This document shows, one piece after another, positions 21,001 to 33,000 of a stretch of DNA of 64,000 bases. Origin of the DNA: an uncultured candidate division Zixibacteria bacterium (GTDB taxonomy: Bacteria; Zixibacteria; MSB-5A5; UBA10806); the NCBI GenBank assembly GCA_963817915.1, contig CAWFQL010000017.1:416001-480000 (forward strand), in the 5' to 3' direction. Within the stretch, counting starts at the first letter, position 1. The number at the start of each line of letters is the position of its first letter. Made by a program: the position numbers.

Positions 21001-24000
21001 CTATATATAGTTTTTCCCGACAAATTATTGCAGAAATTTTAATCAAAAAAGTGTTGAAAAAGCTTGACTTAAAATGGCTCTACTCCTATAGTTTTTTCAA
21101 GGATGGGATGTTCCCAGGTCATAGAGCGTTTAAAGGACTCAACTTAATAGGCAATACAACGGACAGGAATTATCGAGAAAGAACAACTAAAGGGAGGTTA
21201 CTAGAGACCAAAAGTATTTTTACTTCGTACCTAGTTCGCAATTAATCTATAACCTATCTCAAGGAGGGATGAGATTTGTTAGTAAAGCCTCTAATCAGGC
21301 TGGCCACGGTCATGCTAATCTTACTGGTTGCAGCGTCAACATGGGCTGGAACAACCGGAAAGATCGCAGGTAAAGTTACTGACAAAACGACAGGCGAGCC
21401 CCTTCCGGGCGTTAATGTCATTATTGTTGGTACTACCGTTGGAGCGGCTACAAACATCCAAGGTGAATTTTTCATAATCAACGTCAGACCCGAAGTTTAT
21501 ACTTTGAAGGCTAGTCTTATCGGCTACAGGCCCGTCGAGGTAAAGAATGTTCAGGTCTCAGTGGATCTCACTACTACAGTTGATTTCCAATTGGGCACCG
21601 AGACAATCGAAATGGGCACTGTCACTGTTGAAGCGGTCAGACCGTTGATAGAAAAAGATATCACCTCTTCAAGAACCACTATTACCCCGTCACAGATTAC
21701 CGATTCTGCCGTCAACGGCATTATCGCTCAATCAAACTTATCCGCGAGTTCAGTACTCGGATCGTTCAGGGGCGGACGCCAGGACAACGGCGAAGTAGTC
21801 TATATGCTTGATGGCGTCAATCTTTCTAATCCGCTCGGCGAATCGCGCGTCGGAAATAACCCTGGCTCAGGGACTACCGCTCTGGCAACTATTATTCCAA
21901 ATGAATCGATTGCCGAAGCCGAAGTCTTATCGGGCGGGTTCGGGGCTGAGTACCCCAGCGTTCAGTCTGGTGTCATTAATATTGTCACCAAAGAAGGCAG
22001 CGATAAGTTTACCGGCAAGATAAAATCCAAATCTTCGCCGGAAGTGCTATTCAAAGGCACATCGAAACTGGACAAGTACAATAGAAATAAATTGTACGAT
22101 ATGAGACAGCATGAATTTGGTTTGAGCGGTCCCATACCGATTTCCAATGTCGATGTTCCCGGAAAACTGTCGTTTTCGGCTTCGGGCGTTTATACTTATG
22201 TTCGTAGCTATCAAGATGAAAGAGCCTGGGAAAAAAGCCAGTCGATGCAGGGTAAGCTGATTTATCAGATTACATCTTCAAAGAAACTGACTTTTTCCGG
22301 TCTCAAATCGTTCGACAACTTTAAGGGCGCGAATAGAAGCAGAATGCTTTATCTCACTTGGGGATCGCCCACGTACTATACAAAGACCAATGTAAATACA
22401 GCTAACAATCAGTTGTATGATACGACGGTCTCATTTACTCCATATGCCTGGATTCTGGCTCCCAATCATACACAGGCTGAAGCCGATACGCTATATTTCC
22501 GCTGGCTGGCCGGTTATACCAATGATACCACCTGGAATCATAGGATTGGCGCCTATACATCAGTGCCGGATAGTTTGTTGAATTTGGGCAGAGATTATAT
22601 TGATAGTCTCTATAATGCCGGTACCGGCTTTGCAAGAAGCTACAGCAATTATGATATGACCCAGACCCTCGGTATGCCCGAAACATGGTCATATTCATTC
22701 GCGGTCAATTTTAATAGCACGATTAGTTCGAAGAGCTATTACGAACTTAGCTTCTCTCGATTCCTGACCGCCCAGAGAGCAAGGGTATACGACCCGTGGG
22801 ACAGACACCCGATGTCGGCGGATCAATTCCTTGATGCGCGCATCGCGGCTCCCCCAGTTTCATCAATCGAATCAAGTCTCCTGTTTGCCAACCCGATGTA
22901 TATTTCCAGATACAGTCAGGATGACCATTCGATTATTAATACCCTCAAGGGTGATTTCACAAGTCAGGTTAATTCATACAACCAGATGAAGATGGGCGCG
23001 GAAGTAAAGTTCTTTGATCTGCTTTATGATTATCGCTCATATGCATCGGGCAACAATGAATACAATTCTCAGTACAACGTGTCGCCTTATCAGATTGGCG
23101 CTTATGCCCAGGATAAGATCGAGACTCAAGGGATGATTGTTAATGTCGGTATGAGATACGATTTCTTCAATCCGAAAACAGTCGTACCATTTAATCCTCT
23201 ACAGCCTTTGAATCCTGGCTTCAGCGATGTTAATGATCCTCGCTACGGCCAGACCTCAGATCTAAATGCCAGATTGAAAGATCCAGTGCCGGCTAAGAAG
23301 AAACAGCAGATTTCTCCGAGAGTGGGAGTCAGCTTCCCGATAACCGAAAATGACGTATTGCACGTCACTTACGGCCACTATTTCCAGTTGCCGGTATTTG
23401 ATGATTTCTACACCAACCATGCATTTGATCTTCGTGGCGCATTCAAATACATCGGAAATCCCAATCTTACCGAGGAAAAAACCGTGTCGTACGAAGCAGG
23501 TATCGAGCATGGCTTTAATGATTACCTGAAATTGGCTGTCACGGGATATTTCAAGGATATTGCCGATTTGGTGAACCACAAGAGATTCATCAATAATCAG
23601 ACTGGCGATATTTTCTGGATTAATACCAATTCCGATTATGCTCGCGTAAAAGGTTTCGAGATTACTTTTACACAGCGTCCATGGCATAATTTCTCAGGTG
23701 TTTTAACCTATACTTACCAGAATGCTATGGGTAAGGCGTCGAATAAGACTCAGGGATTTTTGGACGCCTATTACCAGAGAAAGCCACGTACTGAAGATTT
23801 CCCTCTTGACTGGGATCAACGCAATACTGCGAAGGCCGATATCAATTACAGAATTCCACCTTCAGAAAATGTTATTACTGGAGACTGGGGTCTTGATGTC
23901 GTGTTTACATTCGGATCCGGTGGACCATACTCTAGCGCTACTAACGTCACGCCTCCCAATCTACCTCCTATCAACGACAAGAGAATGCCGAATACATGGC

Positions 24001-30000: not shown

Positions 30001-33000
30001 CCTCAATAGATACGACTGTTACGCCATGGGATACTACCTATGCGGAGACCTGGGTGCATTCTACAGATTTCACCTGGGCTATCAAGGCTTCTGCCGCGAC
30101 CGGTTATCCTGATTCCATGAAGATCGACGTAGGCAAAAATGGCAATCAGTTGGCCAATTGCGCATCGTTGGTTTACATTAAAGCTGGAGTAACAAGGATA
30201 TTCAATGTCGGTCTCGATGTTGATGGTGCTGAACCTGATAATTACGGTGCAGCGTGTGCATGGACCTATGCACCCGGCGGAAATTATAGGTCGGCGATAA
30301 TCTCCTTCGATACATTCTCAATGGGCGAACCAGCCATGAGACAGACTTTCGGGAGAATTCTAACACTTTTCGGCGAGCATTAGACCTTCGCCGATTCCGA
30401 GAAACAAGCCCGCCCGCCACAACGGCGGACGGGCTTTATTTTAAAATGAAAAAACTGCTCTTTGTAATTCTCATTATTATATTTGCGGCGAATAAGGCGT
30501 ATCCAATATCGGCTACATTAACCGCCAAATTAGATTCGTTGGTTGCGGATACCTTGCTATGTAGTGCAACTATCGGGCTTGCAGTATATGATCTCAACAC
30601 CGATTCAACCATCTACTCCCTCAATTCCGAAAAATTGTCAACTCCTGCTTCTAATCTTAAGCTCTTCACCAGCGCCGCCGCCCTTCATTATTTGAAATCA
30701 GGCTATCGGTTCAAAACGTCTTTTTTTACTAGCGGAAAGCTTAATAAAAAAGGCACTCTCAAAGGCGATCTGATAATTGTCGGTGGCGGAGATCCATTGA
30801 TTTCCGGGCGATTCCGACAAAACGTCACCGAAATCCTTGAATTCTGGGCTGATAGTATTAGGGCCAAAGGCATCAATAATATCGATGGCCGTATAATTAT
30901 TGATAATACTTTTTTCGATGGTCCCGAACTTGGAAATGGCTGGTCCTGGGATGATTTATCATATTGGTATGCCTGTCCGACATCGGCGCTGTCATTTAAT
31001 GATAATTGCGTCGACCTCCGATTATTGCCTGGCATCAAAATAGGGGATAAGGCCAAAATTCAGATTGATCCTCAATCCGATTATATTACTATCACAAATA
31101 ATTCGACAACCCTATCTGCCGATAGCCAGTTTACCTTAGATTATTATCGTATTCCGAATACTAACGATATTACTTTTTTCGGTGGAATCTCTATAGATGA
31201 CACGCTGGGCCATGTCGATTATGTCTCTGTCGACAGCCCCGGAATTTATTGCGCTTATATATTCGACGATATACTAAAATCAAAAGGCATCAAAACCCGC
31301 AAGAATAATATTTCGAGTATAGATAAATCAGCAATTATCGAACAAAATCATCTATTTGATTGGTATTCCGATACGCTCGGAGTAGTTATCTCGGTCATCA
31401 ACAAGAACAGCCAGAATTTCTTTGCCGAACAAGCCCTAAAGACTATTGGCAAAATTGTGACCGGTAACGGTAGTTTTAACGGCGGAATCAAAGCCGCTAC
31501 GGCATTCTTTGATTCAATTGGCATAAGTAAAAATGACTTGATCATGGCCGATGGCTCGGGGCTTTCATATATGAATCTCGTGAAGCCGAATGCCATTTTG
31601 AATTTATTAAAATATCAATTTCATAGCATGGATTTTGCCGCGTATTATGCGTCATTGCCGATTGCCGGGGTCGATAGATCCTTAAGAAATCGATTGTCCG
31701 GAATCGAAAACCGCGATCATTTAAGAGCCAAAACCGGTTTTATTTCAGGCGTATCCAGTTTTTCCGGGTATATCGATGGCCCCCAAAGCGGCCGCATGAT
31801 AGCATTCTCGATTATCATTAATAACTACTCTTGTCCGACATCATATGCCGAAGATTGGGAAGATAAAATCGGCACTGCTTTGCTGATGGAGTATTGATTG
31901 GACTATTTTCATTACCGAAAAGGCGAGCTCTATTGCGAAGATATTAAAGTCGCCGATATTGTTAAAAAATATTCTACACCGCTATTTATTTATAGTCTGA
32001 AAACACTCGTAAGGCATTTTCATGTGACCTCGGAGGCATTCGGAAGTATTCCGCATATAATATGCTACGCCGCCAAGGCCAATCCGAATCTCGCCATACT
32101 AAAGGTGGCATCTCTATGCGATTCCGGCGCCGATGTAGTTTCAGAGGGTGAACTTCGCGCCGCTCTAAAAGCCGGAATTCCGGCCAATAAGATCGTTTTT
32201 TCAGGAGTCGGCAAGACCGATTCCGAAATCGAATTTGCCGCCCGAACCGGAATACTTTTTATTTGTGCCGAATCTCTTCAGGAAATTGATACGATCGGCA
32301 AAATTGCCAAGAAGCTAAAAACCAAGATTCCAGTCGCAATCCGGGTAAATCCGGAAATCGATCCGAAAACCCATCCTTATATCGCCACCGGTCTGAGAAA
32401 CACGAAATTCGGCTTAAGCGAGGATTTAGCGAAAGAAGCCTATAAGAGATGTCGGAAATTCGAATGGGTGGAGCCAGTAGGGATTTCTATGCATATCGGC
32501 TCGCAAGTTGAGACTGTGAAGCCTTATGTTGACGCTACGAAAAAAATTGTCAAGCTCTACAAATATTTATGGAAACAAAATATCCGTTTAAGATATATAG
32601 ATATTGGGGGAGGATGGGCCGCTCATTTTAATTCGCGGAAGCGACTGCCACACCCCGACGATTATATCTCGGCCGTTAAAGATCTTTTTGCCGATCTACC
32701 GATCACTGTTGTGGTAGAGCCCGGAAGGTCGCTTATTGGCAATGCCGGTATTCTTGTCATGAGTGTCTTAGCATCCAAGAAGACGCCCTCGAAAAATTTC
32801 TGTATCGTGGATGCCGGCATGAATGATTTTATTCGGCCTCCATTATATGGAGCCCGGCATCGCGTCGAACCTGTCAAATATTCGCATAGAATATCTATTT
32901 TACAGGATGTTGTCGGCCCGGTTTGCGAAAGCAGTGATTTTTTCGCGAAGAAGATAAAATTGCCATTGATGAAAAAAAATGAACTGCTTGCGCTTTTCAC

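What a model noticed while it worked through the whole genome (the two positions that open the first line are those of the whole stretch)
21276..30383. Three paralogous TonB-receptor / T9SS cargo / PorV-paralog / lipoprotein loci with a variant C-terminal tag
Three loci (also C9:46731-57307 and C6:153927-162599) each join a 900-1100-aa TonB-dependent receptor, a secreted cargo with a variant T9SS tag, a PorV paralog and a lipoprotein; two more variant-tag cargoes sit next to their own PorV paralog (C11:160554, C11:286198). This suggests dedicated PorV-cargo pairs coupled to uptake.
Evidence so far: 11 PorV-like genes listed with neighbours; the three receptors and three cargoes are mutual paralogs. 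The five cargo tails end in K(I/F)xI/VxK/R, lack a Por_Secre_tail row and lie 1-4 genes from a PorV paralog. Receptor-cargo-PorV-lipoprotein order kept in 4 relative loci and cargo-PorV-lipoprotein in 2 more, of 15 fetched. PorV lies near a TonB receptor in 1561 of 21549 genomes bearing both.
(Added by a program. Inside this text positions count along the whole contig: contig position 416,001 is position 1 of the stretch shown here. "Call 12" and the like, gene names such as g00115 and contig names such as C1 are that model's own, and its searches are not shown. The text may have been shortened before it was handed on; [...] marks where a part breaks off. The agent that wrote the report below was given it as the finding of a first reader that could run no searches.)

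Follow-up and report, generated by a model that had tools for sequence, protein, structure and literature searches.

The report
Secreted-lid nutrient importer replacing SusD
Many little-studied relatives of gut Bacteroides seem to import food through an outer-membrane transporter paired with a secreted binding protein that is held on the cell surface by its own anchor barrel, a widespread alternative to the well-known SusC/SusD system that has not yet been tested.

Summary
The window (a Zixibacteria-like genome with SprA, PorU, PorZ-like and no SusD) encodes TonB-dependent transporter (TBDT), cargo, PorV-family barrel and two lipoproteins. The cargo folds as beta-supersandwich + Fn3 + atypical T9SS tail, without a catalytic barrel; the tail class includes the genome's PorU and PorZ-like tails, which are known to stay uncleaved on PorV/PorQ. 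The triplet recurs in 105 of 157 relative loci and across at least six phyla, and in relatives sits amid glycan, peptide or murein catabolic genes, where SusC/SusD would be. The cargo family is in 61 of 61 phylum genomes, SusD in 0 of 61. Strict one-to-one PorV-cargo pairing is not supported: in 5 of 5 genomes checked one TBDT-PorV-lipoprotein operon has no cargo, while 2-7 matching cargos lie elsewhere, so TBDT-PorV is the constant link. Best reading: a SusCD-like uptake module whose binding partner is T9SS-secreted and PorV-tethered. Binding is untested; the same gene order was drawn, uninterpreted, in a Rhodothermus alginate locus.

The parts
21064..21092 (+). sigma-70-like promoter match upstream of the TBDT gene (10 of 12); consensus match only
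   Evidence: 55 such matches in the region vs 40.8 expected, so weak alone
21276..24218 (+). TonB-dependent transporter: N-terminal CarbopepD_reg_2 domain, plug, 22-strand barrel with a large helical extracellular insertion; not SusC
   Evidence: Pfam; TIGR04056 51 bits vs cut-off 368; model pLDDT 87.6 (strands counted from its secondary structure); Foldseek top hits are classical TBDTs
24222..26102 (+). cargo protein, probable start at 24270, signal peptide to about 24353; founding member here of a large unnamed family
   Evidence: 3,297 clusters at 50% identity with E<=1e-30
24417..25385 (+). cargo beta-supersandwich plus linker helix (fold of the N-terminal domains of GH15/GH65/GH94 and of mutarotases); no catalytic (alpha/alpha)6 barrel follows; proposed ligand-binding lid
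   Evidence: model pLDDT 89.1; best Z 20.0, rmsd 2.8, 231 aligned to 1ulv
25422..25748 (+). cargo Fn3-like domain after a proline-rich linker
25785..26099 (+). variant T9SS C-terminal domain (tail K-F-M-I-V-R), PorU/PorZ-like
   Evidence: TIGR04183 19.1 bits, cut-off 23; PorU model E 0.0019; best PDB sequence hit of the family profile is the PorU CTD, E 0.13
26105..27139 (+). PorV/PorQ-family barrel, cassette-specific paralog (probable start 26123)
   Evidence: NF033709 213.9 bits; below PorV and PorQ equivalog cut-offs; own clade with orthologous cassettes
27168..28856 (+). lipoprotein 1 (lipobox, Ig-like repeats, C-terminal alpha/beta domain); remote homolog of the C6 and C9 lipoproteins
   Evidence: C-terminal domain also fused to a cargo domain in C12:2505-6461
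28872..30383 (+). lipoprotein 2, paralog of lipoprotein 1 (probable start 28923)
30406..30436 (+). terminator-like hairpin followed by a U-run; likely end of the five-gene transcript
   Evidence: -23.7 kcal/mol, z -4.6, 0 of 200 shuffles; not flagged on the + strand by the simple scan
30446..39883 (+). murein-peptide processing genes: S13 peptidase, LysA-like decarboxylase, alanine racemase, SH3-NlpC/P60, C39-like, S66 LD-carboxypeptidase (split), enolase-fold epimerase-like, Amidase_3; candidate substrate context
   Evidence: some of these follow the cassette in 15 of 17 orthologous loci with enough flank

Best explanation
A SusCD-like uptake module built from T9SS parts. The cargo is exported by Sec, passes the SprA translocon, is collected by the co-encoded PorV paralog rather than the general shuttle, keeps its C-terminal domain (as PorU and PorZ do) and stays tethered on that barrel beside the TBDT. 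Its supersandwich domain binds the oligomeric substrate and presents it to the TBDT, which imports it with TonB energy; surface lipoproteins assist. TBDT and PorV form the fixed platform; the cargo sets specificity, and in one class several cargos share a platform. In this window the substrate is most likely peptidoglycan-derived peptide (weaker inference). Shown: gene content, folds (predicted), tail class, synteny, distribution. Inferred: secretion route, retention of the tail, PorV-cargo and TBDT-cargo contact, import direction, ligand.
For: Triplet adjacent in order in 56 of 77 GTDB loci and 49 of 80 metagenome loci; another 8 have the same parts in looser order and 19 are cut by a contig end next to the cargo. 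In five genomes of the Ignavibacteria-containing phylum, 20 of 20 cargo loci fetched have TBDT and PorV, with LacI/GntR regulators, GH10+CBM9, GH3, GH13+CBM48/20, GH130, sugar ABC/SSF transporters or Amidase_2 alongside. Cargo family in 61 of 61 phylum genomes, SusD in 0 of 61; 3 of the genome's 5 TBDTs are in cassettes, TonB present. Tail pattern in 120 of 140 cargos vs 4 of 121 generic neighbours; PorU-site-like motif in 3 of 11 atypical vs 96 of 134 generic tails in this genome. Variant tails score better with PorZ/PorU models than with TIGR04183 at C6 and C11. Cargo domains that carry a generic tail lack PorV and TBDT neighbours (C12:2505, L032; L034 likewise). PorU/PorV and PorZ/PorQ retention: PMC10202324. 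Fusion of cargo and both lipoprotein domains under one T9SS tail places them in one compartment.
Against: No physical contact was shown. 44 orphan cargos lack a neighbouring PorV or TBDT, and 5 of 12 atypical tails in this genome have no PorV within 7 kb. PorV-CTD co-variation vanishes once TBDT distance is controlled. Known PorV binding is plastic and hydrophobic, not sequence-specific (PMC10994853), so a tail motif need not mean a private barrel. The cleavage-site contrast is weaker in relatives (38 of 138 vs 65 of 120) and rests on a loose pattern. SusD is not strictly excluded: 11 of 31 Ignavibacteria-class genomes have a SusD match while 25 of 31 have the cargo. Loci were found through the cargo and many are close kin, so counts are not independent. 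A hairpin separates the cassette from the murein genes, 2 of 17 orthologs lack them, and LysA, Alr and S13 are also housekeeping.
Confidence: 0.6

Rival explanations
1. The PorV paralog is only a private shuttle; the cargo is released and works as a diffusible scavenger that returns ligand to the TBDT, like a hemophore.
For: Cognate shuttles that set final destination are known for type B tails (PMC12618676); orphan cargos exist far from any platform.
Against: The tail class groups with PorU and PorZ-like tails, which remain bound to their barrels; PorV stays beside the TBDT when the cargo leaves (5 of 5), which a pure shuttle need not do.
Confidence: 0.14
2. The cargo is a surface enzyme (mutarotase-, epimerase- or lyase-like supersandwich) that prepares substrate, not a lid.
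For: Fold shared with mutarotases (Z 14.5) and GH174/PL domains; several Asp residues are at least 90% conserved.
Against: Best matches are non-catalytic N-terminal domains (Z 18-20); only Gly-Pro is invariant in that domain among 33 diverse members; one family sits with xylan, glucan, starch, mannan, peptide and murein genes, which a single chemistry would not fit.
Confidence: 0.1
3. The PorV-family barrel serves the TBDT itself (FadL-like channel or assembly partner) and the cargo travels on the general PorV; the three are merely co-expressed.
For: TBDT-PorV adjacency survives loss of the cargo; weak FadL similarity; partial PorV-CTD correlation about 0.
Against: Variant tails also sit beside PorV paralogs with no TBDT (C11 loci); cargo and PorV duplicate together in L180; cargo domains with generic tails have no PorV neighbour; all 44 orphan tails match the class whose platform lacks a cargo.
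Confidence: 0.1
4. The TBDT-PorV pair is an export or assembly device (a small translocon for the cargo), by analogy with SprA-PorV and with TonB-dependent secretion in Myxococcus (recalled).
For: Constant TBDT-PorV linkage; GldM not detected in this genome (control silent).
Against: SprA is present; a plugged 22-strand barrel is unlikely to pass folded 580-1280-residue cargos; neighbours are catabolic.
Confidence: 0.04

Closest known systems
SusC/SusD (RagA/RagB) utilisome of Bacteroidetes PULs
   Same: TBDT with N-terminal CarbopepD_reg_2 domain, a partner gene directly downstream, surface lipoproteins, catabolic enzymes and regulators in the locus; many paralogous loci per genome.
   Different: TBDT is not SusC (51 vs 368 bits); no SusD; the partner is a beta-supersandwich with a T9SS tail rather than a helical lipoprotein, and a PorV-family barrel is added.
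PorU-PorV and PorZ-PorQ of the T9SS attachment complex
   Same: PorV-family barrel holding a protein by its uncleaved tail; similar tail class. PMC10202324 already hypothesises that cognate PorV-like barrels protect tails from cleavage.
   Different: Those are secretion-machine parts, one per cell type; here the barrel is multiplied (11-13 paralogs), tied to nutrient transporters and carries non-machine cargo.
Type B CTD substrates with cognate PorP/SprF shuttles (Flavobacterium, Porphyromonas)
   Same: Shuttle gene directly downstream of cargo, uncleaved tail, orphans sharing one shuttle (PMC12618676).
   Different: Different barrel family (no PorP/SprF over cut-off here), type A-like tail, no adhesin or gliding role, linked to a TBDT. 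That paper states type A tails are all recognised by PorV.
Rhodothermus marinus alginate locus (tonB-hypA-hypB-hypC), PMC9530828 Fig. 2
   Same: Same order: TBDT, T9SS-tail protein, PorV/PorQ-family protein, hypothetical, then lyases.
   Different: Listed as hypothetical genes with no interpretation; homology of hypA to this cargo family was not tested.

Membership tests
TonB-dependent transporter | plug plus 22-strand barrel, TonB in genome | tested here: met
SusC/SusD PUL | TBDT of the SusC/RagA subfamily | tested here: not met
   TIGR04056 51.2 bits, cut-off 368
SusC/SusD PUL | adjacent SusD/RagB lipoprotein | tested here: not met
   PF07980 0 matches in this 94%-complete genome and 0 of 61 in the phylum; control B. 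thetaiotaomicron rang
SusC/SusD PUL | co-located catabolic enzymes, regulators, inner-membrane transporters | tested here: met
   murein enzymes in the window; CAZymes, LacI/GntR, ABC/SSF in relatives; peptidases and MFS
SusC/SusD PUL | partner caps the TBDT and binds substrate | not testable with these tools
T9SS type A cargo | signal peptide and Ig-like C-terminal domain with terminal Lys motif | tested here: met
   signal peptide read by eye; beta-sandwich at the C-terminus of the model; Lys/Arg at -6 in 123 of 126 tails
T9SS type A cargo | TIGR04183 / PF18962 above cut-off | tested here: not met
   19.1 bits vs 23; no PF18962 row
T9SS type A cargo | PorU cleavage site before the tail | tested here: inconclusive
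   loose motif absent in the window cargo; 3 of 11 atypical vs 96 of 134 generic
T9SS | SprA, PorV, PorU, PorZ, PorQ in the genome | tested here: met
   SprA and PorU over cut-off; PorV-, PorZ- and PorQ-like proteins present but below equivalog cut-offs
T9SS | PorLM/GldLM motor and PorKN ring | tested here: inconclusive
   GldM not found, but no control genome rang; K, L, N not searched
PorV/PorQ family | NF033709 above cut-off | tested here: met
   213.9, 210.1, 227.6 bits for the three cassettes
PorV/PorQ family | is the PorV or PorQ ortholog | tested here: not met
   73 vs 250 and 93 vs 220 bits; better candidates lie at C17:301717 and C12:589643
PorV/PorQ family | binds a CTD on its extracellular loops | not testable with these tools
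Type B CTD with PorP/SprF shuttle | CHU_C/TIGR04131 tail and PorP/SprF gene | tested here: not met
   CHU_C 15.9 vs 27 bits; TIGR03519 best 26 vs 90.6 bits
GH15/GH65/GH94 enzymes | catalytic (alpha/alpha)6 barrel after the supersandwich | tested here: not met
   model has Fn3 and CTD there

The most novel reading that the evidence does not exclude
A second, superphylum-wide utilisome architecture: a TBDT-PorV twin-barrel platform onto which the T9SS loads exchangeable binding proteins by an address in their uncleaved tail, so that one transporter can draw on a library of 2-7 lids with conserved tails and diverged binding domains (58% vs 44% mean identity); it fills the role of SusD in Zixibacteria, Ignavibacteria, KSB1, Calditrichota, Marinimicrobia and WOR-3, for glycans, peptides and murein.
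Probability: 0.35. Interest if true: 0.87.

Novelty: new variant of a known kind. Interest (0 to 1): 0.75.

Why it matters
SusC/SusD pairs define how PULs are found and how Bacteroidetes feed; phyla lacking SusD have had no recognised equivalent. If right, this triplet is a marker for utilisation loci across the deep FCB phyla (3,297 cargo clusters at 50% identity), lets substrate niches be read from uncultured genomes, links T9SS directly to TonB-dependent uptake, and explains why these genomes keep a dozen PorV paralogs, against the view that one PorV handles all type A tails. It is testable in a cultured thermophile whose alginate locus shows the same order.

Tried and rejected
Complex prediction (TBDT with cargo domain) was not available: no verdict. 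Earlier scan findings were closed. Sequencing runs: none was listed for 21276-30383, so expression and the C6 indels were not checked against reads. PDB sequence search with the PorV paralog: 0 hits at E<=1. ESM Atlas: cargo domain matches only unnamed clusters; lipoprotein C-domain gave leads under or at 0.9 (DUF4960 and others), not used. Foldseek on the whole cargo was dominated by Fn3 repeats. Mirror-tree distances (114 triplets) correlate for all pairs (Pearson 0.83-0.96), which co-inheritance alone explains; not taken as binding evidence. Chance linkage and circular tail ranking rejected. Strict mutual exclusion with SusD rejected. Strict 1:1 pairing rejected. C6 split as true pseudogene judged unlikely but not excluded: three pieces cover an intact ortholog in sequence and about 16 of 168 tail-profile hits in this assembly also run out of frame (by eye). 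Ten paper searches found no description of the module other than the uninterpreted figure legend; subscription journals and supplements were not covered.
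Full report
Observation. The window is G000:C17:416001-480000; the closest named cargo homologs are from Zixibacteria. Five co-oriented genes fill 21276-30383: a TBDT, a 626-codon cargo ending DKFMIVR, a PorV/PorQ-family gene and two lipoproteins. Paralogous loci exist on C6 (same order, cargo in three frames) and C9 (cargo, dockerin protein, lipoprotein, TBDT, PorV, NHL lipoprotein). Eleven PorV_fam genes pass the curated cut-off and two fall below. The genome has SprA, PorU over cut-off, PorV-, PorZ- and PorQ-like genes below equivalog cut-offs, four TonB_C matches, five TBDTs of which three are in these loci, and no SusD, GldM or PorP/SprF match over cut-off (the GldM search had no ringing control).

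Tail class. A profile seeded only on 151 generic tails collected 168 hits; 146 had an intact end and 22 were left out as broken or not CTDs. Of 12 scoring under 75 bits, 7 lie within 7 kb of a PorV-like gene, against 5 of 134 others (p=2e-6; 5 of 10 vs 7 of 136 at 45 bits; thresholds chosen after viewing). The low-scoring class includes PorU and the PorZ-like protein. Variant tails at C6 and C11 score better with PorZ or PorU models than with TIGR04183; for the window cargo the two are about equal, and the family profile's best PDB sequence hit is the PorU tail, weakly (E 0.13). A loose PorU-site motif precedes 3 of 11 atypical and 96 of 134 generic tails here, and 38 of 138 vs 65 of 120 in relatives. 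In P. gingivalis PorU and PorZ keep their tails and stay on PorV and PorQ (PMC10202324, passages and section 10; PMC11285876, passages).

Structures. The cargo model (pLDDT 89.1, 102 sequences) is a beta-supersandwich with linker helix, an Fn3 domain and the tail. Best matches are N-terminal domains of GH15, GH116, GH94 and GH65 enzymes (Z 20.0 to about 17); the catalytic barrel of those enzymes is absent. Among 33 diverse members only Gly-Pro is invariant in the sandwich, with several Asp at 90% or more. The TBDT model (pLDDT 87.6) has plug, 22 strands by my count and a large helical extracellular loop; it matches classical TBDTs and is far below the SusC cut-off. C12:2505-6461 fuses the cargo domain to the C-terminal domains of both lipoproteins under a generic tail, with no PorV or TBDT nearby; L032 and L034 are alike.

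Conservation. Of 77 GTDB loci found with the cargo, 56 are TBDT-cargo-PorV, 1 has a small gene inserted, 5 are C9-type, 8 are cut by a contig end beside the cargo and 7 are other; of 80 metagenome loci 49, 0, 2, 11 and 18 (many short). Record titles span Zixibacteria, KSB1, Calditrichota, Marinimicrobia, Ignavibacteria, WOR-3 and Fermentibacteria. The tail pattern occurs in 120 of 140 cargos and 4 of 121 generic neighbours. The family is in 61 of 61 phylum genomes (3-18 matches each, several matches can be one gene) and SusD in 0 of 61; in the Ignavibacteria class 25 of 31 and 11 of 31; in that phylum 44 of 91 have the cargo. A library-wide search gives 3,297 clusters at E<=1e-30. For five genomes of that phylum I fetched 20 listed cargo loci: all 20 have TBDT and PorV, 15 in triplet order and 5 C9-type. 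Kin are not independent and loci were selected through the cargo.

Functional context. 54 of 111 neighbours from those 20 loci were scanned: LacI and GntR regulators, GH10 with CBM9, PF10091 with GH3, GH13 with CBM48 or CBM20, GH130 with a sugar ABC system, GHL10 with an SSF transporter, and Amidase_2 at two loci. Another class sits with M20, S51 and M14 peptidases, a DcuC-family carrier and RpiR. In the window the cassette is followed by S13, LysA-like, Alr, SH3-NlpC/P60, C39-like, S66, an enolase-fold epimerase-like gene and Amidase_3; some of these follow in 15 of 17 orthologous loci with at least 1.8 kb of flank (30 examined; one duplicate), and a different class has Amidase_3 at five loci. 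Against a direct link: a strong hairpin ends the cassette, and several of these genes are housekeeping. A cultured Marinimicrobia strain lives on muropeptides (PMC11652737, passages; no transporter named there), which makes the substrate plausible but does not test it.

Pairing. Forty loci fetched from phylum relatives showed tandem arrays of cargos with no TBDT or PorV nearby, flanked by peptidases and an MFS transporter (51 of 91 neighbours scanned). They nest with the C6-type cassette. In five near-complete genomes each has three family TBDTs; two are in triplets and the third, of the C6 clade (support 1.0), is followed directly by PorV and a lipoprotein with no cargo, in 5 of 5, while 2-7 C6-type cargos lie elsewhere. 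All 44 orphan tails hit a C6-class tail best, though that class is 4 of 135 in the set; orphans average 44% identity in the sandwich and 58% in the tail, against 63% and 62% in the single-copy window class. L180 duplicates cargo and PorV together. Distances of TBDT, cargo and PorV correlate over 114 triplets, but PorV-tail correlation vanishes when TBDT distance is held. So the stable unit is TBDT plus its PorV, loaded with one or several cargos.

Mechanism. Most likely (0.6) the cargo is secreted through SprA, kept uncleaved on the cassette PorV next to the TBDT, and acts as a substrate-binding lid, the role SusD plays in Bacteroidetes (SusCD function from established knowledge). Functional coupling of the three genes to uptake I put near 0.85; tethering, contact with the TBDT and the ligand are inferred. 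Rivals: released scavenger (0.14), surface enzyme (0.10), PorV serving the TBDT alone (0.10), export device (0.04). PorV binds tails in a plastic hydrophobic pocket (PMC10994853, passages), so sequence class does not prove a private barrel. No complex could be predicted.

Prior knowledge. Cognate shuttles, including orphans sharing one, are shown for type B tails with PorP/SprF; that paper says type A tails all use PorV (PMC12618676, abstract, Introduction, Discussion). The gene order tonB, T9SS-tail protein, PorV/PorQ protein, hypothetical is printed in the legend of the R. marinus alginate locus with no comment (PMC9530828, section 18 and passages); homology of that cargo to ours was not tested. 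PMC11969387 (passages) treats one PorV only. PMC9143113 and PMC10947112 were seen as listings only. Ten searches found no description of the module; subscription papers and supplements were not seen. It works like a SusCD utilisome and like PorZ-PorQ, but is a member of neither. Verdict: real, a new variant of known kinds, interest 0.75.

Noticed in passing
G000:C12:2505-6461 (L005), L032, L034: Fusion of the cargo supersandwich and Fn3 with the C-terminal domains of both cassette lipoproteins; generic T9SS tail in two of the three; no PorV or TBDT nearby.
   Followed up: partly
G000:C17:301717-304293 (L007): The best PorV candidate, next to porU, is 858 aa with a Reg_prop propeller region inserted between its N-terminal segment and the barrel; similar long forms appear in relatives.
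   Followed up: no
G000 whole genome: About 150 T9SS-tail proteins with SprA, PorU and PorZ-like but no GldM match: the energy source for secretion in this phylum is open.
   Followed up: partly
G000:C11:285719-289593 (L004): Lipoprotein, BNR-propeller cargo with variant tail and two tandem PorV paralogs; tandem PorV pairs also in G027, G034, G049.
   Followed up: no
G000:C11:154729-163112 (L003): A CARDB-containing giant cargo in three consecutive ORFs with a variant tail, followed by a PorV-TPR fusion.
   Followed up: no
L202-L209, L212, L213, L227-L230: One cassette class extends the tail by about eight residues after the last strand, ending in Tyr or Phe.
   Followed up: no
L179, L198, L210, L212: Cargo-family proteins in which the T9SS tail is replaced by a dockerin-like end (label by eye).
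   Followed up: no
window 36197-36929, 16452-17697, 53785-54997: S66 peptidase, an unnamed gene and an EF-Tu gene (name recalled from sequence) are each split into two overlapping ORFs: indel noise in this assembly is likely.
   Followed up: partly
window 8564-10246: Subtilase with an atypical T9SS tail and no PorV gene within 15 kb.
   Followed up: no
window 42916-46194: DUF6754 membrane protein followed by three unnamed membrane-protein genes, near M23 and S11 peptidase genes.
   Followed up: no
G000:C6:205205-206662 (L012): PorV-family barrel fused to a SPOR domain.
   Followed up: no
L236, L237, L243, L246, L252: A PPIC-type rotamase gene recurs beside cassettes in the Ignavibacteria-containing phylum.
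   Followed up: no
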